Shown in pieces: positions 49,823-63,339 of a stretch of 64,000 nt of DNA; positions within the stretch are counted from its first letter, which is position 1; every line of letters starts with the position of its first letter. Where the stretch lies: assembly GCA_020428315.1 (NCBI GenBank), contig JAGQNA010000003.1, positions 155 through 64,154 of the forward strand, read 5' to 3'. Source of the stretch: Candidatus Saccharimonadota bacterium (lineage in GTDB: Bacteria; Patescibacteriota; Saccharimonadia; Saccharimonadales; Saccharimonadaceae). A program made the translations under genes and the position numbers. The notes beneath the pieces are model-generated. The model was given only the letters and a program-made list of their open reading frames with translations. It was not told where the DNA came from and did no database searches.

Positions 49823-50893
49823 GTGAATAACCAGGAAGTAAGAATAGAGCTATTACTCGAAGAAGTAGTTAAAAAAAGAGCTAGCGATCTTCACTTACAA
49901 GTTGGCTTGCCACCAATGATGCGAGTCGATGGGAGTTTGAATCCGATTGCTGGTTATGACACTTTAGATGAACAGAAAGTTGAGATGCTTGTTAATTCGA
50001 TTCTCGACCAAGATCAGCAGCAAATATTACAAAAAGATAAAGAATTCGATTTTAGTTTTGCATTTGGTAACCTTGGACGATTTCGGGTTAATGCTTTTCA
50101 TGAGCGTGGTAACCTGGCGGCGGCTTTACGCTTAATACCAAATGAAATAAAAAGTGTTAGCGAACTCGGTATGCCACCGATTGTTATGCAGTTTGCTAAT
50201 TTCCCGCGTGGGCTAGTGCTAGTCACTGGGCCTACAGGTAGCGGTAAGTCGACTACTCTAGCGGCTCTTGTCGATAAAATTAATACTGAACGCTCGAGCC
50301 ATATTATCACTATCGAGGATCCGATTGAGTTTACGCATAAGTCTAAGAAATCTGTGGTTGTTCAACGTGAGGTTCACTACGATACTTATAGTTTCTCGGC
50401 AGCACTTCGTTCAAGCTTGCGTCAGGACCCTGATGTAGTATTGATTGGTGAGATGCGAGATCTAGAGACGATTAGCGCAGCTATAACCATTGCTGAAACT
50501 GGACACCTAGTGTTTGCAACTCTACACACAAACAGTGCTTCACAGTCGATTGACCGAATGATAGACGTTTTTCCACCTCACCAACAGCCGCAAATTCGTG
50601 CTCAGCTTTCAAACATCTTACAGGCGATTGTTAGTCAAAGGCTAGTGCCGTCTATAGGTGGTGGGCGAGTTATTGCTGCTGAGATACTGGTTGCCAACAG
50701 CGCAGTACGAAATATTATTCGTGAAGGCAAAAGCCACCAGCTTGATGCTGTGATCCAAACTGGTGCAGAGCAGGGTATGCAAACAATGGATCGTACACTA
50801 GCGTCATTGGTGCACTCGGGAACTGTTAGCTTAGACGAAGCACGTAATTTTGCAGTAGATTTAACTGAATTTGACAGGATGATTAGAGGCTAA
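49823..50893 (+). CDS. pilT: Twitching-motility retraction ATPase PilT
   Basis: 356 aa; ASDLHL, Walker A GPTGSGKSTT, GEMRDLET, HLVFATLHTNSA. Confidence 0.92.
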   Translation: MNNQEVRIELLLEEVVKKRASDLHLQVGLPPMMRVDGSLNPIAGYDTLDEQKVEMLVNSILDQDQQQILQKDKEFDFSFAFGNLGRFRVNAFHERGNLAAALRLIPNEIKSVSELGMPPIVMQFANFPRGLVLVTGPTGSGKSTTLAALVDKINTERSSHIITIEDPIEFTHKSKKSVVVQREVHYDTYSFSAALRSSLRQDPDVVLIGEMRDLETISAAITIAETGHLVFATLHTNSASQSIDRMIDVFPPHQQPQIRAQLSNILQAIVSQRLVPSIGGGRVIAAEILVANSAVRNIIREGKSHQLDAVIQTGAEQGMQTMDRTLASLVHSGTVSLDEARNFAVDLTEFDRMIRG

Positions 50894-52105
50894 ATGAAAC
50901 GATATCATTATGTTGCAAAAGATCTAGCAACAGGTAAAAAAACACAAGGGGAAGCTCAAGCCGATAGTGTTAATGACGCTGTAAAACTATTAGTCAAGCA
51001 AGGCTTTACTCCACTTGATATCAAAGAACAAGATGAAAATAGTAGTTTTTTCTCAAGTATTAGTGGGCGTATTCGTGCCAAAGATAAGATTGTTTTCAGT
51101 CGACAGCTAGCGACCCTTTTGGGGGCTGGACTTCCACTTAGCCAAAGCTTGCATACTGTAGCTCAGCAGACAGAGAATACAAAGTTACGTAAGGTTGTTG
51201 AAGAGATTATTACCGATATAGAGGGTGGTAAGTCTCTTCACGACTCTTTCGCGAAACATCCAACCGTCTTTAGTAAGGTTTTTTTAGCACTTGTTGAAGC
51301 AGGTGAGGCTAGTGGTACGCTAGATGATGCCTTGAAGCGTATTGCTTCACAGCAGGAAAAAGATGCTGAAGTGGTTAGTAAAATTCGTGGTGCGATGGTT
51401 TATCCAATGATTGTACTGGTTGTTATTGGCTTAGTGATTGTGTTTATGATGCTTACTGTTGTCCCACAGGTTGAACAGCTATACGAAGACCTTCATAAGC
51501 CACTACCGTTATTAACAAAAATCATGGTAGACGGCGCCAGCTTTATGCGTAGTTATTGGTATGTTGTTGTTTTAGTGCTTCTGGCGTCTGGTTATTTTTT
51601 CTGGCAGTGGCTAAAAACAGAAGGTGGTATTAAGTTTAAAGATAGCTTTAAGCTAAACGTACCTTTGTTCGGTATTTTGTTTAGAAAGCTTTATATGGCT
51701 CGATTTGCTCGAACAGGACAAACTTTACTTAAGGTTGGTGTGCCAATGCTCGATATGTTAAGGATTACGGGCGAGGCGGTAAATAATACGATATTAGAGT
51801 TGGCAATAACTCGAGCATCAGACAAGGTAAAAAGTGGCAAGCCGCTGTCGAAGAGTATTGAAGGCGAAGACTACTTCATGGTACTAGTACCTCAAATGAT
51901 AAACATTGGCGAGCAGTCTGGTAAGGTTGACGAAATGCTTGGTAAAGTAGCACAAGTCTATGAAGATGAGCTAGATGAGCAGATTCGTACTATATCGACA
52001 CTCATCGAGCCAGTGTTGATGGTTGTACTTGCTATTGTGGCTGGTGGAATGGTGGGTGCGATCTTATTTCCAATTTACAGCTTAGTTGGTGGAGTAAAAA
52101 TTTAA
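50894..52105 (+). CDS. pilC: Type IV pilus platform protein PilC (GspF family)
   Basis: 403 aa with two T2SSF repeats and three TM segments. Confidence 0.9.
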   Translation: MKRYHYVAKDLATGKKTQGEAQADSVNDAVKLLVKQGFTPLDIKEQDENSSFFSSISGRIRAKDKIVFSRQLATLLGAGLPLSQSLHTVAQQTENTKLRKVVEEIITDIEGGKSLHDSFAKHPTVFSKVFLALVEAGEASGTLDDALKRIASQQEKDAEVVSKIRGAMVYPMIVLVVIGLVIVFMMLTVVPQVEQLYEDLHKPLPLLTKIMVDGASFMRSYWYVVVLVLLASGYFFWQWLKTEGGIKFKDSFKLNVPLFGILFRKLYMARFARTGQTLLKVGVPMLDMLRITGEAVNNTILELAITRASDKVKSGKPLSKSIEGEDYFMVLVPQMINIGEQSGKVDEMLGKVAQVYEDELDEQIRTISTLIEPVLMVVLAIVAGGMVGAILFPIYSLVGGVKI

Positions 52106-52195
52106 ATAAATTATCTAGACAAGGCTAGGCCAGTAGTGTAGTATAAGCTTTAGCATAGTGCTATAGAATTAGTAACCGGAAAGGTGGGTTAATAA

Positions 52196-52672
52196 ATGAA
52201 TAAAGTACATAACAAAAGAGGGTTTACTATCATAGAGGTAGTATTGGTACTTGCAATTGCAGGTTTAATATTTTTAATGGTATTTATTGCGCTACCAGCG
52301 CTTCAGCGAGGTCAGCGTGATACTCAGCGACGTGATGACGTATCGAAGTTTACATCACAACTACAAAGCTACGCGGTCAATAATCGTAATAAGTTGCCCG
52401 CCGCTACTCCTGTTGCTGTTACTGCATTTAAAACTAGCTATCTCAAGTGGAAGGTTGATAATAGTGGAGAATTTAATGATCCAAAAACTGGTAACGGTTA
52501 TAACATTACAACAGGTGCGGGAACACCTACAGCAGCTGATGAAATGCGATATGGTGGACCGAATACCGAGTGTAATAATGAAGCGATTCAAACAGGTGGT
52601 GGTAACCGTCAAGCAGCAATCTCTGTTGTCCTCGAGGGCGGTGGAGTATATTGCCAGAACTTAGTACAGTAA
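52196..52672 (+). CDS. pilA: Major type IV pilin
   Basis: Class III signal NKRG|FTIIEVVLVLAIAGLIFLMVF; followed by its own terminator. Confidence 0.85.
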   Translation: MNKVHNKRGFTIIEVVLVLAIAGLIFLMVFIALPALQRGQRDTQRRDDVSKFTSQLQSYAVNNRNKLPAATPVAVTAFKTSYLKWKVDNSGEFNDPKTGNGYNITTGAGTPTAADEMRYGGPNTECNNEAIQTGGGNRQAAISVVLEGGGVYCQNLVQ

Positions 52673-52690
52673 GCAAAAAGTGGCATAAAT

Positions 52691-52716
52691 AAATGGGCAC
52701 CTTCGGGTGTCCATTT
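52691..52716 (+). terminator. Terminator after pilA
   Basis: AAATGGGCACC-TTCG-GGTGTCCATTT (one G-U pair) running into TTTG. Confidence 0.65.
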
Positions 52717-52724
52717 GCTATAAT
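52716..52724 (+). promoter_or_regulatory. Extended -10 TGcTATAAT, 10 nt upstream of pilD ATG 52735
   Basis: tTGCTATAATagataatactATG. Confidence 0.5.
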
Positions 52725-52734
52725 AGATAATACT

Positions 52735-53625
52735 ATGGTGGCAGTTATTGCGATACTAGGTTTAGTTATGGGGTCGTTTGCTGGTGCTCAAGTTTGGCGT
52801 TTGCGTGCCTGGCAACTATTAACCGATAAACAATCTGGTGAAAAACTAACTAAGTTGGAGCAAGCAGAGTTAGTAAGGCTACGACCGCTTACTAGTAAGC
52901 CTTTGGCCGATGATCGTTCGCGTTGTTTACATTGCAAGCACGAGCTGGCTGTTCGTGACCTGGTGCCGCTTATCAGTTGGCTGAGTACTGGTGGTCGCTG
53001 CCGCTACTGTAAAAAGCCAATCGGCTGGTTTGAGCCACTGATCGAGCTATCTGTAGCTACTTTATTTACCGTCAGCTTTATACTATGGCCGTTCCCTATA
53101 GCAGATTTTGTATCTATCAGTATATTTCTATTGTGGTTGACGTCGTTAATATTGTTTGTAATCCTGTTTGCATACGATGCAAAATGGTTTTTGCTTCCAG
53201 ATATAATCATCTGGCCGCTACTTGCGATAGGAAGCATTTTTGCAGTTATACGGCTGATGAATGCTCCAGATCTTGTTGGTGCACTAACCTCACTACTTAT
53301 TGGACTTGTCATATTATCAGGGCTATATGCAGCTCTTTACTATTATTCAAGCTGGCGAAGCAAGGGCGAAAGTAGCTGGGTCGGCTTTGGTGATGTGAAG
53401 CTCGGTTTTGTTTTGGCACTTTTCTTGCTAGATTGGCAGTTGGCATTTTTGACACTTTTTGTGGCAAATTTTCTTGGTTCATGTATCGCCATACCAGGCT
53501 TATTGTTAAAAATTCTACCGCGGGGTGCCAGAATACCATTTGGTCCATTGTTGCTTGCCGGTTTTTTCATATCAATGTTTTGGGGTCAATATATAATAGA
53601 CTGGTTTAATAAGCTTATGCTATAA
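52735..53625 (+). CDS. pilD: Prepilin peptidase (A24 family); start taken at ATG 52735 rather than 52693
   Basis: Cys-box CLHC...CRYC, catalytic Asp contexts AYDAKWFLLPD and GFGDVKL; polytopic. Confidence 0.88.
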   Translation: MVAVIAILGLVMGSFAGAQVWRLRAWQLLTDKQSGEKLTKLEQAELVRLRPLTSKPLADDRSRCLHCKHELAVRDLVPLISWLSTGGRCRYCKKPIGWFEPLIELSVATLFTVSFILWPFPIADFVSISIFLLWLTSLILFVILFAYDAKWFLLPDIIIWPLLAIGSIFAVIRLMNAPDLVGALTSLLIGLVILSGLYAALYYYSSWRSKGESSWVGFGDVKLGFVLALFLLDWQLAFLTLFVANFLGSCIAIPGLLLKILPRGARIPFGPLLLAGFFISMFWGQYIIDWFNKLML

Positions 53626-53626
53626 T
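53618..53626 (+). promoter_or_regulatory. Extended -10 TGcTATAAT, 7 nt upstream of minor-pilin ATG 53634
   Basis: taTGCTATAATtacacctATG; overlaps pilD stop. Confidence 0.55.
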
Positions 53627-53633
53627 TACACCT

Positions 53634-54386
53634 ATGAAGGGTAGTATTAGCTCTGGTTTTACTGTCATCGAAGTCGTGCTTTTTTTAGTCGTATCGTCTG
53701 CCTTGACAGTAGCTATATTTTCCACTATTACCATGTCGATAAACGAACAAAAATATCGAGATACTCTTACCGGTGTGCAGTCTAAAATATCTAGCCAGTT
53801 TAATCAAACAACGCATGTTGTTAACTCTCGAGATAATAATAGTGGTGTAGCTTGCGGAAGTACTACAAATAGAGGTGCATCAAATTGTATAGTCATTGGT
53901 AGGCTTGTTGAGGTCCATGAGGATAGTATTACTACATCTTCGCTAATTGCTACCCCTGTAGATGACGGTGTCGTAGTCGATGGAATTCCGAACCAGGTTG
54001 CTAATAGCTCTACAGCCGATGATCCTACTACCGTTGAAGACTATTTTAAACTGTATAATATTACATCAGATAAAGACAGCTCAGCTGATACCTACCAACT
54101 ACCCTGGGAGGCTGATATTGAGGGCATAGGCGATGGCCAGAAGCTAATGATAATGATACTTCGCTCACCAGAGACGGGTCAAATCTATACTTATTCAAAA
54201 CAAGTTTCGGATGGAGATACTACGTATAGGTCTATTATCGAAGATACTAACACTGTAGAGCGGACAATTTGCATCCCACGTGATGGACTTGGCAGCTCGA
54301 AGTCATTAGGGATAAAACTACGAGCTAAGGCTAGCAATGCTGGCTCCGTTGAACTGCTGACAGACGGTGAAGGCAACCCATGTTAA
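53634..54386 (+). CDS. Minor pilin
   Basis: Prepilin signal SSG|FTVIEVVLFLVV. Confidence 0.75.
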   Translation: MKGSISSGFTVIEVVLFLVVSSALTVAIFSTITMSINEQKYRDTLTGVQSKISSQFNQTTHVVNSRDNNSGVACGSTTNRGASNCIVIGRLVEVHEDSITTSSLIATPVDDGVVVDGIPNQVANSSTADDPTTVEDYFKLYNITSDKDSSADTYQLPWEADIEGIGDGQKLMIMILRSPETGQIYTYSKQVSDGDTTYRSIIEDTNTVERTICIPRDGLGSSKSLGIKLRAKASNAGSVELLTDGEGNPC

Positions 54387-55009
54387 AACGGCATAATCAG
54401 CGAGGGGATACAATCATAGAGGTTACTTTAGCGTTTGTAGTTTTTTCACTACTATCGGTATCGGCAATTGCTATTATGAATCGTGGCGTATCTGCCTCGC
54501 AAAAGGCACTAGAGATCACGTTGGTTCGACAGCAAATTGATTCGCAATCCGAGGCCTTGCGAAATCTAAACGATTTTGCTAGTAAAAAAAATGCTAGGAC
54601 AGACTTTCACGACGAATACGCTGATTGGCAAAAAATTGCAAAGGTAAACAGTACGCTATATCCAGACAGTATTGCAAGGAGTAGTGTTGAAGAACTTAAG
54701 CTTACTGAGGATAATCGCTGCCCTGGTGTGCCGGAAGGGTCATTTATAATGAACGCTAGAACAGGAAGGGTAGGTGGCCTAGCTAAGGATGATAAGATAA
54801 GTGGTTCAGATACCGCACCGTTTAGTCAGGTGGTATATAATTCTGCTGATCCGAAATTGATTGATAGTACAAATGGAATTTGGGTTCAGCCTAAGCGACA
54901 GTCAAATAGTACTAAGTATGTAGACTTCCATATCACAGCCTGTTGGTATTCGGCGTCGGGGACCCCAACGATACTGGGGACGATTGTGAGGATTTATGAT
55001 AATGTTTAA
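54380..55009 (+). CDS. Minor pilin with atypical +1 residue
   Basis: QRG|DTIIEVTLAFVVF: Asp instead of Phe/Met at +1, Glu5 kept. Confidence 0.65.
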   Translation: MLKRHNQRGDTIIEVTLAFVVFSLLSVSAIAIMNRGVSASQKALEITLVRQQIDSQSEALRNLNDFASKKNARTDFHDEYADWQKIAKVNSTLYPDSIARSSVEELKLTEDNRCPGVPEGSFIMNARTGRVGGLAKDDKISGSDTAPFSQVVYNSADPKLIDSTNGIWVQPKRQSNSTKYVDFHITACWYSASGTPTILGTIVRIYDNV

Positions 55010-55769
55010 GCGAGGCTTTACTATAATAGAATTAATGCTCTCTATGACGTTCATCTCAATTCTTTTAATTGCTGTTGCTACACTAACTATCCATATGAGC
55101 AACTTATATACTCGGGGTATCACAATGCGCCAGGTGAGTACCGCAGGTCAGGAGCTTGCAAATAATATTCAGCGAAATATTCAGAGCACACAGGGAATCG
55201 ATTTAAATAATAATTATGTTGTCTTCATGAATAATTCTGTGAACCCTAGGGTCAAACGTGGTCAAGCTGCATATGACGCTATGAATGATGTAAATGAAGC
55301 AAAAAAAATTATGGGTGGTCGACTATGTGTTGGAGGAACAACCTATGCATGGAATAACGGTAGCTACTTGAAAAACTTTGAAGCTGGAGGCAGTACCGAC
55401 TCGCCTAACGTAGTGGATGATAAGCCAGTCCACTTAGTTAAGGCAACAGGTGTAAATTTGTGTCCGAGCGGCAACAGCTTAGCACCTTTTAATAGTAGCT
55501 CACTGGATGCGGCGTCTAGTACCGAGGACTTACTCAGTAACGGTGACCGCCAGCTTGCAATACACAAATTTCTTATCAGTAGCGTAACTAATAAGGGGCT
55601 ATATTCTATAAGCTTTACTATCGGTACTAGTGACGTAGATGCATTAGAATCTGGGAGTGAAAGTTGTAAGCCCCCGAGTGATACAGACAGTGATGAAAAC
55701 TATTGTTCAGTAAATCGGTTTGATGTAATAGCTAGATCAATTCCACAGTCTGGAGGGGTAACACCATGA
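54996..55769 (+). CDS. Minor pilin
   Basis: KRG|FTIIELMLSMTFISILL. Confidence 0.75.
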   Translation: MIMFKRGFTIIELMLSMTFISILLIAVATLTIHMSNLYTRGITMRQVSTAGQELANNIQRNIQSTQGIDLNNNYVVFMNNSVNPRVKRGQAAYDAMNDVNEAKKIMGGRLCVGGTTYAWNNGSYLKNFEAGGSTDSPNVVDDKPVHLVKATGVNLCPSGNSLAPFNSSSLDAASSTEDLLSNGDRQLAIHKFLISSVTNKGLYSISFTIGTSDVDALESGSESCKPPSDTDSDENYCSVNRFDVIARSIPQSGGVTP

Positions 55770-56866
55770 CACGTAAACATGAATCGGGTGCAGTATCATT
55801 AGTAGTTGTGATTTTTGCGTCTCTACTTATAACAGTAGTTACAATTAGCTTTACACGAGCTATGCTAGAGTCAGTTCAGGAAGCAAGTACGGTAGATCTG
55901 TCGCAGAGTGCTTATGATACAGCACTAAATGGGGTTGAAGATGCCAAGCGGGCTATTGCTAACGGAGATATATCGTCTACGACCACCCAATGCAACCAAG
56001 GTCTGCTTTCAGGTGGTGGGTCAGGTATGGAGGTTATGGTTAGTCAGGATGCTAGCGACGAGAAACTATCACAAGCGTATACCTGTGTGACTGTTGATTT
56101 TTCTGCACAATCTGTTAATTACGACGCTGTCGCAGAGAATAGTTCGATACTGATACCTTTAAAACCCGATACAGGTGGAGTTTTTTCACAAGTTCGCATA
56201 GGCTGGAGTAGACCAAACAAGTCTAACAATCCCCCTGTTTTGGCAGCGAATTCGAGCAAGTTACCTGTTGATAGTGCGTGGCCAGAGGAAAGACCTGCAT
56301 TATTAAGAGTACGGTATATTTGGTCAGATAGTTCCGTAGATATGGCCAAGTTCAATTCTACAGAAGGGGGTGGTACGTTCAAGCAGGCTGATAATAGTCG
56401 TACGCTGTTCCTTGTGCCTACCGGTACTTCAGCTGTTCAAACCTCGTCTGATATTAGCGCAAAGAATGCGAATAGCAGCTCCCCTGTGTATGTAGATTGT
56501 AATAGTGCAGCTACTGTCAACTCTGGGAGAGATGACTGTGCATTTAACCTTACTAATGTTCCAGAAGCATCTCAAAGTGACGCACCTAAATTTGTTCAGA
56601 TTACACCGCTCTATAGTAGCTCTAATATTAGCGTTGAGATGCTAAACGGCTCAGGTGCAATTGTTCCGTTTGTAGGTGTACAAGCTGTAGTTGATTCGAC
56701 TGGGCGAGCAAGTGATTTATTCAGGCGAGTCCAGGCAAGAGTAAACTTAGATGGGTCAACCAATCAGAGCTACCCAAGTGATGCGTTAGTTATTAAAGAT
56801 GGCAATTTATGTAAGTCATTTACTATTACAAACGAGGATTTAGCCCCTGATCCTAGTTGCAGGTAG
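55766..56866 (+). CDS. PilX-like pilus-associated protein (hydrophobic N-terminus, no Glu5)
   Basis: HESGAVSLVVVIFASLLITVV then a 330-aa ectodomain; last gene of the pilin block. Confidence 0.5.
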   Translation: MTRKHESGAVSLVVVIFASLLITVVTISFTRAMLESVQEASTVDLSQSAYDTALNGVEDAKRAIANGDISSTTTQCNQGLLSGGGSGMEVMVSQDASDEKLSQAYTCVTVDFSAQSVNYDAVAENSSILIPLKPDTGGVFSQVRIGWSRPNKSNNPPVLAANSSKLPVDSAWPEERPALLRVRYIWSDSSVDMAKFNSTEGGGTFKQADNSRTLFLVPTGTSAVQTSSDISAKNANSSSPVYVDCNSAATVNSGRDDCAFNLTNVPEASQSDAPKFVQITPLYSSSNISVEMLNGSGAIVPFVGVQAVVDSTGRASDLFRRVQARVNLDGSTNQSYPSDALVIKDGNLCKSFTITNEDLAPDPSCR

Positions 56867-56874
56867 TGGCTAGA

Positions 56875-57783
56875 TTAGGAGCTATGGAATCTTTCGTGAA
56901 CCTCACGTAAATGTTCGTCTGTTACATGTGTATATACCTGAGTCGTAGAGATATTGCTATGGCCAAGCATGCTCTGAACACTACGAAGGTCGGCGCCATT
57001 CATCAATAGGTCTGTGGCGAAGCTATGGCGCATAGTGTGAGGACTAACATGTTTTGTTATACCGGCCATGCGTGCGTATTTGCTTATCATCCGTTGGACG
57101 CTACGAGCACCAAGCCGACGGTAGTCACCCGAATTACTAGATATATTGTTTCGACTATAACTTAGAAACAGAGGGGGTAGGTTGTCTAGCCGGCTGTCTA
57201 GGTAATCTTCAACGCACTTAGCTGCAGCATCACTCACAAAGACTGGACGATCTTTTTGTCCCTTACCGCGAACCATAAATTCGCGCCTTTTTGTGTTTAC
57301 GTGGCCTTTATCTAGGTTTACTAGTTCAGAAACACGGAGCCCACTACTAAATAGTAGTTCAATAATTGCCCGATCGCGTAGCCCTTCTTCTTTTTCAAGG
57401 TCAATTACACTAATGAGCTGCTGGATCTCTTCAAAATGTAGAAATGTAACTTGTTTACGACTTATTTTTGGTAGTTTTACCTTGTCGGCCGACAGGGTAG
57501 TGATGTTCCGGTCTGATAAATACTTTAAAAATCCACGCAAGGCTATAAGATGGTAACTCTGAGTAATGGTCGATAGCTTTTCGCTGTTGTTATTTTCATA
57601 ACGATTCAACCACAATCGATAACGACGTACAATTTCGGTTGTTATTTTCTCTACAGCTATATCATCTGTAAATTGGACAAAACGCTCAAGGTACAATCTG
57701 TAATTTTCTGCTGTTTTTGCAGAACGGCCACCTTCGACCTCGATAGATTCAACGAAATCCAGTATCAACTCAGACGTGTACAT
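56875..57783 (-). CDS. Tyrosine recombinase XerC/XerD family (start taken at ATG 57783; track ORF runs to 57813)
   Basis: HTMRHSFATDLL, LGHSNISTTQVYTHV (catalytic Tyr), N-terminal SAM-like core-binding domain. Confidence 0.88.
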   Translation of the reverse strand: MYTSELILDFVESIEVEGGRSAKTAENYRLYLERFVQFTDDIAVEKITTEIVRRYRLWLNRYENNNSEKLSTITQSYHLIALRGFLKYLSDRNITTLSADKVKLPKISRKQVTFLHFEEIQQLISVIDLEKEEGLRDRAIIELLFSSGLRVSELVNLDKGHVNTKRREFMVRGKGQKDRPVFVSDAAAKCVEDYLDSRLDNLPPLFLSYSRNNISSNSGDYRRLGARSVQRMISKYARMAGITKHVSPHTMRHSFATDLLMNGADLRSVQSMLGHSNISTTQVYTHVTDEHLREVHERFHSS

Positions 57784-57789
57784 GATATT

Positions 57790-57795
57790 AGTATA
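57790..57795 (-). promoter_or_regulatory. -10 box TATACT (minus strand), 6 nt upstream of xer ATG 57783
   Basis: Minus strand reads gcgTATACTaatatcATG. Confidence 0.5.
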
Positions 57796-57798
57796 CGC

Positions 57799-57804
57799 TA
57801 TAAT
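57799..57804 (+). promoter_or_regulatory. -10 box TATAAT, 7 nt upstream of uppP ATG 57812
   Basis: cgcTATAATtaagcgcATG. Confidence 0.5.
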
Positions 57805-57811
57805 TAAGCGC

Positions 57812-58600
57812 ATGACCTTGTTCGATGTGATTGTACTAGGACTGATACAGGGATTAACTGAGTTTATTCCTGTCAGTAGCTCGGGCCATCTGGTGATAGC
57901 TCAAACACTGCTTGGTATGGAGCCACAGCATTTATTTTTAGAGGCAATAAATTTTGGGACGTTCTTTGCACTGCTTGCTTATTTTTGGCCTAAAATCATT
58001 ACGATTCTGCACGACATTTTTTTTAAAAAAAACTACAAGTTATTCAGAAATATATTAATTACATCTGTCCCTGCTGGTTTGGTAGGCTATATTTTTGCCG
58101 ACTTTATTGGTGCATCGGCATTTTTTGGAAACATCTGGGTTGTAGTTACAACACTTTTTGCAATTGGTATCGTTATGGTTTGGTTAGAAAGAATACCACG
58201 ACTTAGTGATATTGCGAACGGTGAGGAGCTATCTTCAAAAAGAGCCTTAAGTATCGGCTTTGCTCAGATGCTGGCTTTAGTCCCGGGCGTTTCACGCTCG
58301 GGCTCAACAATTATCGTCGGTCGTTTAATGGGTCTAAGTGCTAAGGAGGCAGCCGAATACAGCTTTTTGGCTAGTTTGCCAATAATGCTTGGTGTAATTT
58401 TAAAGGTCTCTCTTGATAACCCTAGTTACTTGATAGAAAATATGAGCCTTCTTCTTGTTGGAAATCTCGTCGCTTTCTTCTCTGGCTTATTAGCCGTAGG
58501 ATTTTTAATAAAGTTTTTATCTAAACATCCATTAAGGCTGCTAGGCTGGTATCGAATTGTGCTAGCAGTTTTGATAGCCATTAGTCTTTTGGTACAATGA
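57812..58600 (+). CDS. uppP: Undecaprenyl-diphosphate phosphatase (start taken at ATG 57812)
   Basis: GLTEFIPVSSSGHL and PGVSRSGSTI motifs; polytopic. Confidence 0.9.
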   Translation: MTLFDVIVLGLIQGLTEFIPVSSSGHLVIAQTLLGMEPQHLFLEAINFGTFFALLAYFWPKIITILHDIFFKKNYKLFRNILITSVPAGLVGYIFADFIGASAFFGNIWVVVTTLFAIGIVMVWLERIPRLSDIANGEELSSKRALSIGFAQMLALVPGVSRSGSTIIVGRLMGLSAKEAAEYSFLASLPIMLGVILKVSLDNPSYLIENMSLLLVGNLVAFFSGLLAVGFLIKFLSKHPLRLLGWYRIVLAVLIAISLLVQ

Positions 58601-58624
58601 TAGGAGTAATTAATAGGAGAATAT

Positions 58625-59131
58625 ATGAGTAAAAATGTTGAACAGACGTTGGTATTATTTAAGCCGGATTCGTTACAGAGGGGGCTAGTTGGTGATATCT
58701 TGACTAGATTCGAACGAGTTGGCCTTAGAATTGTTGGAACTAAGATGCTAGCTCCAGATCGTAACCACTATGGTAAACATTACGAAGATATCGGCAAGCT
58801 TAAGACTCGAGCAGGTGAGAAAATATTTGACATAACCCTTGATATGATGGGTCGTGGACCAGTTATTGCTATGGTTTTTGAAGGAGTCGAGGCGGTGAGC
58901 TTGGTCCGAAAGTTGGTTGGTGGCACAGAGCCGAAGAGTGCGGAACCAGGTACGATTCGAGGTGACTTTAGTCATATGAGCTATGAATATGCTAACAGCG
59001 CTCAAAAGGGTATTCCAAATCTTATTCACGCTTCAGGCGACCCAGAAGAAGCGATTAAGGAAGTGAACCACTGGTTTAGTGATAGCGAACTTTACGATTA
59101 TCAGGCACTACACGAGGTGTTTACTCGTTAA
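58625..59131 (+). CDS. ndk: Nucleoside diphosphate kinase (long form)
   Basis: LVLFKPDSLQRGLVGDILTRFE, GTIRGDF, NLIHASGD (active-site His); SD AGGAG. Confidence 0.88.
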   Translation: MSKNVEQTLVLFKPDSLQRGLVGDILTRFERVGLRIVGTKMLAPDRNHYGKHYEDIGKLKTRAGEKIFDITLDMMGRGPVIAMVFEGVEAVSLVRKLVGGTEPKSAEPGTIRGDFSHMSYEYANSAQKGIPNLIHASGDPEEAIKEVNHWFSDSELYDYQALHEVFTR

Positions 59132-59141
59132 ATCTAAATTA

Positions 59142-59765
59142 CTATTCTCGGAAGATACTTTTTAATCTCGGCATGACAATGTCTGCAATAATCCGATGTC
59201 CCTCATTATTTGGGTGTAGGCTATCGGGCAAGAGTTCAGTTTTTGCCTCCGCCTCTGTAAAGGGAGTGAGAATATCAATAAACTCCAATGCGTTGTCATG
59301 GCAAAAAACCTCCAAGACCTGATTGAACATTCGTATTCTATCGTTTGTATAGCCAGTATTGCTCCATGATACAGGGTTTGAGCGTTCTTCTACGCATGGC
59401 GTAAGTCCGACAAAAACAATTTTGTTAGAGTACCTACTAGCCATTACGAGTAGTTTTTCAAGATTGCTTTTGTATTCTTCTGGTTCAGAGAAATTAACGC
59501 CCGATTTTGTACGTGAGTCATTTAACCCTACGGCAAAAATAAACCCCAACTCCTCGTCCTGACATCGGGCCTTTGTTTCTGCCTCAAAACGCTCCACGAT
59601 ATCCCGGCTACTATTTCCAGAAATACTCAAATTAAAGATTGTCGGCAAATCGTAGCCAGTTTTAATAGTTTCTTTGTCGTACACTGTGCGAATACGCTGT
59701 ATCCAGCCGCCGTTAGTATCCCAAAAGCCCTGTGTTATGCTGTCGCCAAAAATTAGTACTCTCAT
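59142..59765 (-). CDS. SGNH/GDSL-family hydrolase
   Basis: Block I IFGDSITQG, block III GLNDS, block V DSLHPN. Confidence 0.8.
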   Translation of the reverse strand: MRVLIFGDSITQGFWDTNGGWIQRIRTVYDKETIKTGYDLPTIFNLSISGNSSRDIVERFEAETKARCQDEELGFIFAVGLNDSRTKSGVNFSEPEEYKSNLEKLLVMASRYSNKIVFVGLTPCVEERSNPVSWSNTGYTNDRIRMFNQVLEVFCHDNALEFIDILTPFTEAEAKTELLPDSLHPNNEGHRIIADIVMPRLKSIFRE

Positions 59766-60505
59766 GATTTGTATCTTGGGTCGTGTATTGTTGTATAAAT
59801 AATCGTTTGTATCCAGCGTTCGATAATATCATACCATTTGGCTGGATTGGGCATAAGTTTTGGCGAATGTTCAAGACCTCTTATGACTATATAGTTACCA
59901 TGTGCTGCAGCGTGATAGTACGACTGCAGTATATTGGCTTCAATAACCGTATCAGCTTCATGCTCGATGATGTAACTTGTACCGTCAAAGGCTTTTAGTG
60001 CCTCCGTTGCTTTATTTGAATATGTCATATCAATATTTTGTCTGTAGAGGTCTTTAGCCTCGTCATCTTTACTTTCTATTGTTTCCGAATAAGGATAGTC
60101 AAACTCCTCGTCTTTGTAGTTCGCTGCCGCACGCAAGATAACAATCTGAGGTTCTCGAACTCCTGCGAGGAGTGCTGCCATGTAGCCGCCAAAACTACCG
60201 CCAATGATAATGATTTTGTCTAATCCTCGACTCACAAGCTGGTCATACACGGTGCATACTTCCTCAAATTGTTGCTTGCGTGTCGCTTGTTCTAGCGGGA
60301 CAGGATGATTGCCATGTCCAGCATAGTTGAGAATGGCAAATGGAACATTGGAAGCAGTGCTCATACGTTCACAACCCTCATTATGGCCCTCGATTGTACT
60401 GGTAAAGCCCTGTAGCCATAATACAACCCAGCCGTTATGTGCGTTATCTGGAGTGAATAGTCGCCACGGTGTACCGTCATCAAGAGTGTAATTGTCAATT
60501 TTCAT
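59762..60505 (-). CDS. Alpha/beta-fold hydrolase
   Basis: Nucleophile elbow GGSFGG; 247 aa; overlaps downstream SGNH gene by 4 nt. Confidence 0.7.
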   Translation of the reverse strand: MKIDNYTLDDGTPWRLFTPDNAHNGWVVLWLQGFTSTIEGHNEGCERMSTASNVPFAILNYAGHGNHPVPLEQATRKQQFEEVCTVYDQLVSRGLDKIIIIGGSFGGYMAALLAGVREPQIVILRAAANYKDEEFDYPYSETIESKDDEAKDLYRQNIDMTYSNKATEALKAFDGTSYIIEHEADTVIEANILQSYYHAAAHGNYIVIRGLEHSPKLMPNPAKWYDIIERWIQTIIYTTIHDPRYKS

Positions 60506-60511
60506 ATCTGT

Positions 60512-60520
60512 ATTATACCA
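60512..60520 (-). promoter_or_regulatory. Extended -10 TGgTATAAT (minus strand), 6 nt upstream of ATG 60505
   Basis: Minus strand reads TGGTATAATacagatATG. Confidence 0.55.
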
Positions 60521-60659
60521 CTCTCTTTTTTCTTTAGACGGGCAACGGTCACGCTTTGTATTTTTCTATTTTTGGTGTCCTGTACCATTTTGCTAGAATC
60601 TATTTTAGTATGAGATGCTAAGTAAACCCTATCGAATGTGTTACAAGCGACACATAGGC

Positions 60660-60665
60660 TATAAT
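60660..60665 (+). promoter_or_regulatory. -10 box TATAAT, 7 nt upstream of the original alr ATG 60673
   Basis: ggcTATAATcgtaagtATG. Confidence 0.5.
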
Positions 60666-60672
60666 CGTAAGT

Positions 60673-61810
60673 ATGTCAGACCGACTAACTGTAGCAGATA
60701 TAGATCTTGGAAATTTACGCTCATAATATTTCAAAGATACTGGAAATCGTACCAAATGATACAAGAGTAATGGCTGTGGTGAAAGCCGACGCTTATGGAC
60801 ATGGTATTGAGGCGATGGCCAAGACAGCCGTTGAAGCTGGCGCAACCTATATAGGCGTTGTAAGCTTAGGCGAACTAAAAAAAGTCCGTAACGCAGGTAT
60901 TCAAGCACCAATTTTGTTACTTAACTACATAGATAAAGCTTCAGTTATGGAAGCAATCAAGCTTGATGCATCTATAACTGTCATGGACGAGGAAATATTG
61001 ATTGCTATCGAGAAAGCTGCCAGCTTTCAAGCAAAGAAAGCTAAAGTGCATATCAAGATTGATACAGGTATGCACAGAGCGGGCTGCGATCCAGACAAGC
61101 TGCTTGGCCTTGCTCAAGCCATACTAAGTACACGACATCTAGAATTAGAGGGCTTGTTCACACATCTAGCGGAGGCAGAAGATTTAGACGTAGCGTTTAC
61201 GCACCAGCAACTAAAGGTATTCAGCGATTTGATTGATGTTTTACGAAATACAGGAATCAATCCACCATTACTGCACTGTGCCAATAGTGCTGCAATTATA
61301 AATTTTCCAGAAGCACACTTTACGATGGTTCGACCAGGGTTGATAACATATGGGCTTAATCCTTTCCCTGAGGGACATCAGTAACACGAATTTGTCGCCA
61401 AAGAGTTCAAGCCAGTTTTATCTCTTAAAACGCAGGTGATTTTCGTGAGAACTATCGAGTCAGGTGAAACAGTTGGCTACAATAGGCGTTGGCAAGCTAA
61501 AAGACAAAGTGTTATCTCGTTACTGCCTGTTGGTTATGGCGACGGCTACCGCCGCGCGCCGCATAATGCCACAAGGGTTTTGATAAATGGACAGTATGCT
61601 CCAATAGTTGGCAGTGTAGCAATGGATCAAACAGTTATTGATGTTACTGATATTGATGGCTCAATTTCCGTGGGTGACGAGGTCATTCTACTCGGTAAAC
61701 AAAGCTCACTATCAATTACAGCCGATGACGTGGCTGTCGCATACGGAACTATAAATTATGAAGTAGTTACCTCGTTATCTGACCGTGTTGACAGAAACTA
61801 CTCATCTTGA
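60673..61810 (+). pseudogene. alr: Alanine racemase with a +1 frameshift near 60721 and an in-frame TAA at 61382-61384
   Basis: ATG 60673 gives MSDRLTVADIDLGNLRS*; removing one nt (T 60721) gives ...[17 protein letters not shown]...[11 protein letters not shown] (PLP-Lys motif); ORFs 60707-61384 and 61436-61810 share a frame, with 17 open codons (HEFVAKEFKPVLSLKTQ) between them. Confidence 0.8.
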
Positions 61811-62026
61811 AATCCGATTGTTTAGCACACCGTCTAGAAAAATAATTATTGATCTCAAAGATATTCTTAAATCCAAAGTCTACTCCAAGAAGCAAAAAAA
61901 CATTAGCGATTGTAGAGCAATCGCACACAAGTAGTGCATAAATAACATAACGTAATTGCAAAATATTAAAGCTTATGTTATTATACAATATATAAAGTAA
62001 ATTGAACAAGAAAGCGTCCTACAACT

Positions 62027-63082
62027 ATGACAGAACCCAGCAGGGAAGAATTACCACAAAGCCCCACTCCTGACCTTAAAATGGTCACTGCTGCATATGA
62101 TCACATTCTTAAATATAATATCAAGCACACAGGCTTCAGACCTATGCTCAGTGGTTTATTCAAGGTTCTTATGGTGAGTGATGGTGTTCTTGACATGGAC
62201 AATCCTGACGCTACAACTCCTAAGAGTACAGAAGAAGCATACAGTGGTTTTGACGATACAATGCAGGAAGGCGTTGTGGAAGGCGACATGAACGCTGAGT
62301 TGCAAGACATTTTTCATAGCGATACATTCATGCGTGCTGGTATCAAAATTGCACCCTTTGGTCAGCTTCATGCTAATGGTGAGGGCAGGGCTGTTACAAG
62401 CACAGAGCTAGTGCCTGTAATCGAAAATACTTCACTGTTTGCAGAGTTCCTTGGCAAGTTACAGCCTGAGGATGTTCAGAACGAGGGTGCTGAAATATTC
62501 CTTAGTGACGTAGTGGCTAACTTATCAAAAGTTGTAGGACTGTGCTTCGATACTAGTAAGCACAAAGACTTGTCTGACGAAGAAAGAGCTGCTGTTACTA
62601 AAGCAGGTGAGGACGCACTTCGTACATTCGTTACAATCGACCCTGAGTATGCACGTCTTGGCATTGACGGTGACGCTATGCGTGCCTGTGTAGAGTTTAT
62701 GACTAAGTGTGTAAATTACTGGGGTCGAAACCTTTTGCCTGAGTACTTAGTAGCTCAGAGAGGTCAATACCTAACACCTCCTGCCGAACAAGGCTTTGGT
62801 CCTTCTAACTGGCAAAAAGATAGTGGTCAGCACCACTGGCAAGAAGCCCTCGGTTTCTTACGTGTACTTGAGCAAGATGAGCGAACTAAGCCATTTGCAG
62901 AAGAAGTGCGTAATGGTTTGGTTACGTCGCTTAACGCTGCCCTCGCTGAGTTAGATGATCCTACCAAAAATGTTAACTGGCGAAGTCAGGGCAGTGATTT
63001 GGTTAACATTCTCAACGCCATTACTGATCAACCGTTTGATGAAGTGAAACTTGCTGACTACATCAAAAGCCTGACTACATGA
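62027..63082 (+). CDS. Hypothetical acidic cytoplasmic protein
   Basis: 351-aa ORF; no TM, no motif recognised. Confidence 0.55.
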   Translation: MTEPSREELPQSPTPDLKMVTAAYDHILKYNIKHTGFRPMLSGLFKVLMVSDGVLDMDNPDATTPKSTEEAYSGFDDTMQEGVVEGDMNAELQDIFHSDTFMRAGIKIAPFGQLHANGEGRAVTSTELVPVIENTSLFAEFLGKLQPEDVQNEGAEIFLSDVVANLSKVVGLCFDTSKHKDLSDEERAAVTKAGEDALRTFVTIDPEYARLGIDGDAMRACVEFMTKCVNYWGRNLLPEYLVAQRGQYLTPPAEQGFGPSNWQKDSGQHHWQEALGFLRVLEQDERTKPFAEEVRNGLVTSLNAALAELDDPTKNVNWRSQGSDLVNILNAITDQPFDEVKLADYIKSLTT

Positions 63083-63221
63083 GTTAAGCCCCTACGCCTC
63101 TGCGCTTTAGCACAGGCGACCTGACAGAAACAGCCTTTTCTATAAAAAAGAAAAATTCGGCGGGGAAATCTAGAAAATGTAAAGCGTTTTTCTGGCGGCG
63201 CGATTCCGACTTTCCCAATTT

Positions 63222-63298
63222 TGGTACCCCGGGCAGGAGTCGAACCTGCAACCTTATCCTTAGGACGGATCTGCTCTATCCAGTTGAGCTACCGAGGC
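63222..63298 (-). tRNA. tRNA-Arg (anticodon CCU), CCA encoded
   Basis: Reverse complement GCCTCGG-TA-GCTC-AACTGGATA-GAGC-A-GATCC-GTCCTAA-GGATA-AGGTT-GCAGG-TTCGACT-CCTGC-CCGGGGT-A-CCA folds as a cloverleaf (2 G-U pairs in acceptor stem, one 27-43 mismatch); U33, anticodon CCT, A37. Confidence 0.85.
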
Positions 63299-63321
63299 AT
63301 ACACCTTGAAACATTGTAGCA

Positions 63322-63330
63322 TGCTATACT
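63322..63330 (+). promoter_or_regulatory. Extended -10 TGcTATACT, 9 nt upstream of ATG 63340
   Basis: aTGCTATACTtaaacatgtATG. Confidence 0.45.
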
Positions 63331-63339
63331 TAAACATGT

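What the first reader, a model, noticed from the sequence alone, without database searches (positions are those of the whole stretch)
60673..61810. Alanine racemase hit twice: 1-nt frameshift plus in-frame TAA
A leaderless-type promoter and ATG (60660-60675) open a 17-codon ORF, MSDRLTVADIDLGNLRS*. Deleting one nt around T60721 restores the canonical N-terminus ...[35 protein letters not shown], which carries the PLP-Lys motif. About 660 nt further on, TAA 61382-61384 interrupts the otherwise continuous sequence ...NPFPEGHQ*HEFVAKEFKPVLSLKTQVIFVRTIESGETVGY. Two independent lesions argue for real inactivation. The window still encodes wall-related functions (uppP, a PBP-like hydrolase, LysM and sortase-type substrates). 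If alr is truly dead, D-Ala must come from another racemase or transaminase, or from a host or partner.
Basis: partly seen in the sequence, partly recalled or inferred. Interest (0 to 1): 0.6.

Follow-up and report, generated by a model that had tools for sequence, protein, structure and literature searches.

The report
Recently broken alanine racemase gene
The only alanine racemase gene of this tiny Saccharibacteria genome is truly broken by two mutations, an ordinary step of gene loss in a lineage where most relatives have already lost the gene and must get D-alanine another way.

Summary
Both lesions are real. The frameshift is one extra T in a TT run (window 60714-60716, not T60721). The stop is a CAA-to-TAA change at 61382, in the loop between the enzyme's two domains. 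Ten contigs assembled independently from several studies are 100% identical to the window here and carry the lesions, so assembly error is excluded.

Intact 378-aa alleles at 92-95% nucleotide identity circulate in the same recombining population. One haplotype has the +T and TAA with a recombinant 3' end. Another has the +T, no TAA, and its own extra C. So the +T came first and later hits accumulated independently, which is the pattern of a dead gene. There is no excess amino-acid change yet, so the loss is young.

This genome (98% complete) has no second alr, no D-amino-acid transaminase, no glutamate racemase, no MetC-type enzyme and no DapF. Ddl, MurF, MurD and MurE are intact. alr was found in only 23 of 300 other family genomes, while ddl is common, so living without alr is normal in this lineage. 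D-Ala probably comes from the host bacterium or from a GlyA side reaction (inferred). This is a well-documented but ordinary case of reductive evolution.

The parts
60673..61810 (+). alr pseudogene, whole extent (ancestral 378-codon gene plus one inserted base)
   Evidence: TIGR00492 scores 358 bits read-through. It is collinear with intact 378-aa orthologues P0002 and P0003.
60660..60665 (+). TATAAT -10-like hexamer, 7 nt upstream of the ATG; possible leaderless start
   Evidence: Read in the sequence and conserved in L019 and L021. No -35 was found by the scan. Function not tested.
60673..60726 (+). 17-codon remnant ORF: the first 14 codons are the true alr N-terminus, then out of frame to TAA
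60714..60716 (+). Lesion 1: +1 T insertion (TT to TTT) causing the frameshift at codon 15
   Evidence: Alignment A1 and the haplotype table. The extra T is absent from intact L019, L021 and L143. It is present in the window and in 9 of the 10 window-type contigs L024-L033 (L025 does not reach this site), and also in L145 and L142.
60707..61384 (+). 225-codon ORF in the shifted frame, covering the N-terminal PLP-binding barrel (Ala_racemase_N) with the Lys motif [10 protein letters not shown]
   Evidence: TIGR00492 212 bits over profile positions 13-229. PF01168 233 bits.
61382..61384 (+). Lesion 2: TAA nonsense codon (ancestral CAA Gln; AAA Lys in the 84% orthologue), in the inter-domain loop
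   Evidence: The domain position comes from the alignment to solved Alr 4y2w.
61385..61810 (+). C-terminal beta-domain remainder (Ala_racemase_C) with the catalytic Tyr in ETVGYN. Gene callers start it at GTG 61436 (124 aa) or GTG 61445 (121 aa), the latter preceded by AGGTGA 61434-61439.
   Evidence: TIGR00492 138 bits over profile positions 238-367. ORFs, gene calls, sequence.

Best explanation
This is a genuine, recently inactivated alanine racemase pseudogene in a Candidatus Saccharibacteria (Saccharimonadales) genome.

Shown: a +1 T insertion at codon 15 came first and cut the N-terminus off the rest of the protein. With selection gone, lineages then picked up different second lesions. 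The window's lineage gained CAA-to-TAA at the domain boundary. Another lineage gained a +C in the C-terminal domain. Broken and intact alleles co-circulate and recombine within one species-level population.

Shown: the gene is expendable in this group. alr was not found in about 92% of family genomes, although most keep ddl.

Inferred: D-Ala, and here D-Glu as well, is obtained without a dedicated racemase. The most likely source is the host bacterium's cell-wall turnover. The alternative is the slow alanine-racemase side reaction of GlyA.
For: Anatomy.

Not an artefact: ten contigs from separate runs and assemblies are 100% identical to window 60640-61830 wherever they overlap it, and each carries the lesion at every site it covers. 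They come from SRR6747754/799, SRR14610230/236/243, SRR28385529, SRR7638771, ERZ27309117/088 and ERZ28655329. Neither lesion lies in a long homopolymer.

Intact orthologues: P0002 at 91% amino-acid identity (L019, 864-kb contig), P0003 at 84%, and P0124/P0126 at 95% nucleotide identity.

Order of events: L145 has +T and TAA with an L019-type 3' end. L142 has +T, keeps CAA, and has a private +C near 61668. L143 is intact.

Young: polarised substitutions are 18 non-synonymous to 17 synonymous on the window lineage, against 19 to 22 on the intact sister lineage (Fisher p = 0.82). The TAA sits in a 400-bp patch with only 6 differences from L019.

The other twelve genes of the 11-kb syntenic block are intact.

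Single alr locus in a genome that is 98.3% complete.

Family context: alr in 23 of 300 family genomes and 4 of 40 relatives. ddl in 30 of 40. glyA in 37 of 40.

No substitute enzyme found: the class-IV aminotransferase is IlvE-type, 234 bits against 82 for Dat. No MurI or Asp/Glu racemase, no MetC family, no DapF.

Consumers are intact: Ddl, two MurF-like ligases, MurE, MurD and MurT.

Against: There is no detectable rise in dN/dS. That fits a young pseudogene, but it would also fit a gene still under selection.

The TAA lies exactly between the two domains, and an SD-like AGGTGA precedes GTG 61445, so separate translation of a C-terminal piece is conceivable.

L142's +C rests on a single contig.

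The genome is in 69 contigs. glyA is assembled only for its first ~150 codons, so a substitute enzyme hidden in a gap is not excluded.

The D-Ala source is inferred, not shown.
Confidence: 0.88

Rival explanations
1. Sequencing or assembly error: the gene is intact in the organism and the two lesions are artefacts of this MAG.
For: This is a fragmented MAG of 69 contigs. The reads themselves could not be inspected.
Against: The identical sequence with both lesions was assembled independently in ten contigs from several studies and assemblers, and in a further haplotype, L145. The lesions are a TT-to-TTT insertion and a base substitution, which are not typical short-read errors.
Confidence: 0.02
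2. Split but still functional enzyme: the barrel piece and the beta-domain piece are translated separately by re-initiation and reassemble into an active racemase.
For: The TAA falls in the variable inter-domain loop. AGGTGA lies 5 nt before GTG 61445. Both catalytic motifs, the Lys in [10 protein letters not shown] and the Tyr in VGYN, are retained. The Asp in the Lys motif occurs in 36 of 118 homologues. No dN/dS increase was seen. From memory and not verified here: an active two-fragment alanine racemase of Bacillus stearothermophilus was engineered by Toyama and colleagues (J Biol Chem 1991).
Against: Three pieces would be needed, not two. The +T removes the first 14 residues, or 32 if translation restarts at ATG 60770, and no SD precedes TTG 60707. 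The 121-124-aa piece lacks the first ~17-20 residues of the beta-domain (HEFVAKEFKPVLSLKTQ...). The SD-like motif is ordinary coding sequence, identical in intact orthologues. Different haplotypes carry different second lesions, including a +C that truncates the C-terminal domain, as expected for neutral decay. Most of the family does without alr.
Confidence: 0.04
3. Programmed recoding: a +1 ribosomal frameshift and stop-codon read-through yield full-length Alr.
For: The two frames overlap cleanly and the rest of the gene is undamaged.
Against: No slippery or stimulatory motif is present, and the T-run is only 3 nt. Orthologues at 84-95% identity have a plain uninterrupted frame, so the features are new mutations rather than conserved signals. 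TAA is an efficient stop and the organism's other genes read normally under table 11.
Confidence: 0.01
4. The gene is dead, but D-Ala is made inside the cell by an enzyme not recognised here or lying in an assembly gap, rather than taken from the host.
For: glyA is present but cut by a contig edge, and GlyA can racemise alanine (PMC3935232). glyA is near-universal in the order, in 37 of 40 relatives. About 1.7% of marker genes are missing from the assembly.
Against: The GlyA side activity is slow and gave only partial rescue in E. coli. No source of D-Glu was found either, which points to a general reliance on outside D-amino acids. Saccharibacteria are known epibionts lacking amino-acid synthesis (established knowledge).
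Confidence: 0.3

Closest known systems
Biosynthetic alanine racemase Alr (TIGR00492; fold-type III PLP enzyme, e.g. PDB 4y2w, 1sft)
   Same: Full-length collinear homology. PLP-Lys motif [10 protein letters not shown]. Catalytic Tyr in the C-terminal domain. Two-domain layout.
   Different: The frame is broken twice, so no single polypeptide with both domains can be made.
Intact orthologues in the same Saccharibacteria population (P0002/L019, P0126/L143, P0003/L021)
   Same: Same locus and neighbours: uppP, ndk, GDSL lipase, 247-aa gene, then alr. Nucleotide identity to L019, L143 and L021 ranges from the mid-80s to 95%. Mosaic sharing of segments.
   Different: They lack the extra T and have CAA or AAA instead of TAA.
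alr-less bacteria that keep peptidoglycan synthesis (Chlamydiaceae)
   Same: Ddl and Mur ligases are present with no functional Alr or DadX, and GlyA is available as a possible slow racemase (PMC3935232). In Chlamydia the missing MurI is covered by DapF (PMC5885031, title and abstract).
   Different: Here DapF is absent too. The organism is an epibiont of bacteria, which release D-amino acids, rather than an intracellular parasite of eukaryotic cells. The loss is caught in progress and is polymorphic.
Gene decay in reduced symbiont genomes (generic reductive evolution)
   Same: A single inactivating hit is followed by independent secondary lesions, and sister lineages have already lost the gene.
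   Different: Nothing substantive. This is a new instance of the pattern.

Membership tests
Alanine racemase (TIGR00492 / PF01168 + PF00842) | Sequence match above the curated cut-off over both domains | tested here: met
   358 bits against a cut-off of 168, profile positions 13-367, read through one TAA. The pieces score 212 and 138 bits.
Alanine racemase (TIGR00492 / PF01168 + PF00842) | PLP-binding Lys motif K-[AG]-[DNE]-A-Y-G-H-G near the N-terminus | tested here: met
   [10 protein letters not shown]. Asp at this position occurs in 36 of 118 homologues and in solved Alr 4y2w.
Alanine racemase (TIGR00492 / PF01168 + PF00842) | Second catalytic base, the Tyr of the C-terminal domain (G-Y-G/N motif) | tested here: met
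   ETVGYN aligns with FIGYG of 4y2w. The identity of this Tyr as the catalytic residue rests on established knowledge of the family.
Alanine racemase (TIGR00492 / PF01168 + PF00842) | One uninterrupted reading frame encoding both domains | tested here: not met
   A +1 T at 60714-60716 and TAA at 61382-61384.
Alanine racemase (TIGR00492 / PF01168 + PF00842) | Racemase activity | not testable with these tools
   Needs complementation of an E. coli alr dadX mutant or an enzyme assay.
Unitary pseudogene (recent) | Disrupting mutations relative to intact orthologues at the same locus | tested here: met
Unitary pseudogene (recent) | Lesions reproducible outside the one assembly | tested here: met
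   Ten independent contigs plus L145. The read-level check was not possible.
Unitary pseudogene (recent) | Independent secondary lesions in lineages sharing the first lesion | tested here: met
   TAA in the window and L145; +C in L142. The L142 lesion rests on one contig only.
Unitary pseudogene (recent) | Relaxed selection (raised dN/dS on the broken lineage) | tested here: inconclusive
   N/S is 18/17 against 19/22, p = 0.82. There are too few substitutions to tell, which fits a young age.
Unitary pseudogene (recent) | No functional product expressed | not testable with these tools
Programmed frameshift / read-through gene | Recoding site conserved in orthologues, with a slippery motif | tested here: not met
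   Orthologues have a plain frame. The T-run is 3 nt and no stimulatory element is visible.

The most novel reading that the evidence does not exclude
This Saccharibacteria population is polymorphic for D-alanine autonomy. Strains with intact and dead alr co-circulate and recombine. The dead-alr strains lack every recognisable route to D-Ala and D-Glu yet keep Ddl, MurD and MurF. They would build their wall entirely from D-amino acids scavenged from the host bacterium's peptidoglycan turnover, and alr status would track which host they live on.
Probability: 0.35. Interest if true: 0.5.

Novelty: new member of a known kind. Interest (0 to 1): 0.3.

Why it matters
On its own this is a routine pseudogene. 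Its value is as a cleanly dated snapshot of reductive evolution: a first hit, independent second hits, intact alleles still in the population, and relatives in which the gene is already gone.

It also sharpens a practical question for growing Saccharibacteria. This genome consumes D-Ala and D-Glu but has no recognisable way to make either. D-amino-acid supply by the host may therefore be a dependency that could be tested, or supplemented, in co-culture. The near-identical intact and broken strains would be natural controls for such a test.

Tried and rejected
- **Read-level and RNA check:** Independent public assemblies were used instead.
- **Metagenome pattern scan:** a scan across the TAA/CAA site returned nothing.
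- **Literature:** searches on D-Ala supply in Saccharibacteria or Patescibacteria found nothing relevant. The split-racemase paper I recall is not in the library.
- **Dat hypothesis:** rejected. The only class-IV aminotransferase is IlvE-type.
- **Second alr, YggS or DadX:** rejected.
- **MurI, Asp/Glu racemase, MetC-type and DapF:** none found.
- **Rest of glyA:** tblastn with a relative's GlyA found only the contig-edge fragment. My first attempt picked the wrong ORF, a MurA-like gene.
- **N39D as a third lesion:** rejected. Asp is common at that position.
- **Full sigma-70 promoter at the start:** not found by the scan.

Full report
**What is in the sequence**

At window 60673 an ATG opens a 17-codon ORF, MSDRLTVADIDLGNLRS, that stops at 60724-60726. 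The alanine racemase frame continues one base over (TTG 60707 to TAA 61382-61384, 225 codons). It then runs on in that same frame to TGA 61808-61810. The two large pieces match TIGR00492 alanine racemase at 212 bits (profile positions 13-229) and 138 bits (238-367). Read through, the locus scores 358 bits against a cut-off of 168.

**Exact nature of the lesions**

I aligned the locus with two intact 378-codon orthologues: L019 (product P0002, 91% amino-acid identity, on an 864-kb contig) and L021 (P0003, 84%).

- The frameshift is one extra T in a TT run. The window reads AAATTTAC where both orthologues read AAATTAC. By the ruler the run is 60714-60716.
- The stop is CAA (Gln) in L019, AAA (Lys) in L021 and TAA in the window. 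That is a single C-to-T change at 61382.
- Alignment of the intact orthologue to solved alanine racemases places this codon in the short variable loop between the N-terminal PLP barrel and the C-terminal beta-domain.
- The window-specific Asn-to-Asp change next to the PLP lysine ([10 protein letters not shown]) is harmless. Asp occurs there in 36 of 118 homologues and in the solved enzyme 4y2w.

**Artefact or real?**

As a substitute I looked up the exact truncated products in public assemblies.

- The 225-aa and 124-aa fragments occur on ten contigs assembled independently. The runs and assemblies are SRR6747754, SRR6747799, SRR14610230, SRR14610236, SRR14610243, SRR28385529, SRR7638771, ERZ27309117, ERZ27309088 and ERZ28655329.
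- At DNA level all ten are 100% identical to window 60640-61830 wherever they overlap it, and each carries the lesion at every site it covers.
- Neither lesion is in a long homopolymer.

Assembly error is effectively excluded.

**Population context and order of events**

The protein cluster around P0002 holds further alleles, and I fetched their DNA. The variable-site table and pairwise identities give four kinds of haplotype:

| Haplotype | +T at 60714-16 | Site 61382 | Other features |
|---|---|---|---|
| Window type | yes | TAA | ten contigs, 100% identical |
| L145 | yes | TAA | 99.5% identical; 3' end (61704-61824) is L019-type, so it is a recombinant |
| L142 | yes | CAA | private extra C (GTC to GTCC) near 61668, which truncates the C-terminal domain; product P0123, 323 aa |
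| L143/L144 and L019 | no | CAA | intact. L143 is 95% identical, a mosaic of L019-type and window-type segments, and has the same downstream 351-aa orphan gene as the window |

All broken haplotypes share the +T but differ in their second lesion. The +T was therefore the first, inactivating hit, and the later lesions accumulated independently. That is the signature of a gene no longer under selection. L142's +C rests on one contig and should be treated with that caution.

The window and L019 are about 94% identical over 11 kb, in a mosaic of patches at 1-3% and 10-15% divergence. This population recombines, and intact and dead alleles co-circulate in it.

**Age**

Using L021 as outgroup, the window lineage has 18 non-synonymous and 17 synonymous changes, against 19 and 22 on the intact L019 lineage (Fisher p = 0.82). 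No relaxed-selection signal has built up yet. The TAA lies in a 400-bp patch (61264-61663) with only six differences from L019. Both points indicate recent inactivation. The other genes of the syntenic block (type IV pilus genes, xerC-like integrase, uppP, ndk, GDSL lipase and a 247-aa gene) have the same lengths as in L019, so alr is the only broken gene in that 11 kb.

**Could it still work?**

A full-length protein would need a +1 frameshift and a read-through. There is no slippery motif, and orthologues have a plain frame, so programmed recoding is rejected.

A split enzyme is conceivable in principle, for these reasons:
- The stop is at the domain boundary.
- AGGTGA (61434-61439) precedes GTG 61445.
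- From memory, not verified here, an active two-fragment alanine racemase was once engineered from the Bacillus stearothermophilus enzyme.

Against it:
- Three pieces would be needed. The N-terminal 14-32 residues and the first ~17-20 residues of the beta-domain would be lost.
- The SD-like motif is ordinary coding sequence, identical in intact alleles.
- The independent +C lesion in L142 fits neutral decay better.

I give this about 4%.

**Where does D-Ala come from?**

The genome (816 kb, 69 contigs, 98.3% complete) has a single alr/PF01168 locus.

No substitute producer was found:
- The only class-IV aminotransferase is an IlvE-type branched-chain enzyme, at 234 bits against 82 bits for D-amino-acid transaminase.
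- No glutamate racemase or other Asp/Glu racemase.
- No MetC-family enzyme.
- No DapF.

The consumers are intact: Ddl at 295 bits (above its cut-off), two MurF-like ligases, MurE, MurD at 351 bits, and MurT.

So the cell still needs D-Ala and D-Glu but shows no dedicated way to make either. glyA is present, but only its first ~150 codons are assembled, at a contig edge. [quoted passage not shown] GlyA is therefore a possible internal source of D-Ala, though not of D-Glu.

**How unusual is this in the lineage?**

Not very.
- alr was found in only 4 of 40 sampled relatives. It was found in 23 of 300 other genomes of the same family, all with uninterrupted frames.
- ddl was found in 30 of 40 relatives, glyA in 37 of 40, murI in 22 of 40 and class-IV aminotransferases in 9 of 40.
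- Having ddl without alr is thus the usual state in this order. The window's lineage is caught taking that step.
- The nearest alr homologues are all Saccharibacteria, then other candidate-phyla-radiation bacteria. This fits vertical inheritance with repeated loss.

Saccharibacteria are epibionts of other bacteria and lack amino-acid synthesis (established knowledge). Uptake of D-amino acids released by the host's wall turnover is therefore the most economical explanation. It is inferred, not shown.

**Verdict**

Biologically this is an ordinary, well-documented case of reductive gene loss in a lineage that mostly lives without alr. The moderately interesting residue is the missing source of both D-Ala and D-Glu. 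The co-circulating intact and dead alleles would let that dependency be tested.

Noticed in passing
window 61811-63339; L019 11138-13150; L142 3973-4361: The stretch between alr and the bPH_2 gene varies between close haplotypes. The window and L143 carry a 351-aa orphan gene (62027-63082) next to tRNA-Arg(CCT) at 63222-63298 on the minus strand. L019 carries a 543-aa serine recombinase instead. L142 has neither. From 63219 onward the window is 99.7% identical to L019 again.
   Followed up: partly
window 50664-61850 vs L019 1-11178: Divergence from the sister genome is strongly mosaic, with 200-bp bins ranging from 1 to 41 differences. This indicates frequent homologous recombination within this Saccharibacteria population.
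   Followed up: partly
G000 C44:276-1352 and C6:66-965 (L007, L008): There are two ddl copies, 91% identical at protein level, and the C6 copy is cut by the contig edge. The divergence matches that between window-type and L019-type alr alleles. The bin may therefore contain contigs of two co-occurring strains rather than a true duplication.
   Followed up: partly
relatives G002, G006, G009, G010, G016, G036, G038 (murI matches): Several glutamate racemase matches in related genomes contain one or two in-frame stops. These may be further decaying D-amino-acid genes, or matches that run past short genes' true ends. Not examined.
   Followed up: no
G000 C16:685-1881 (L018): A 398-aa ORF immediately follows the IlvE-type aminotransferase. 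By eye it resembles a MoeA-type molybdopterin molybdenumtransferase, which would be unexpected in such a reduced genome. It was not run against any family library.
   Followed up: no
G000 C18:518-1906: A long ORF is 56% identical over 465 aligned residues to a relative's 474-aa protein that by eye has an HTH-type N-terminus fused to a MurA-like body. It lies next to the truncated glyA.
   Followed up: no
window 12646, 24088, 25329: An earlier scan note lists three further single-site lesions in other genes of this window. They were not checked here. The independent-assembly test used for alr could be applied to them too.
   Followed up: no
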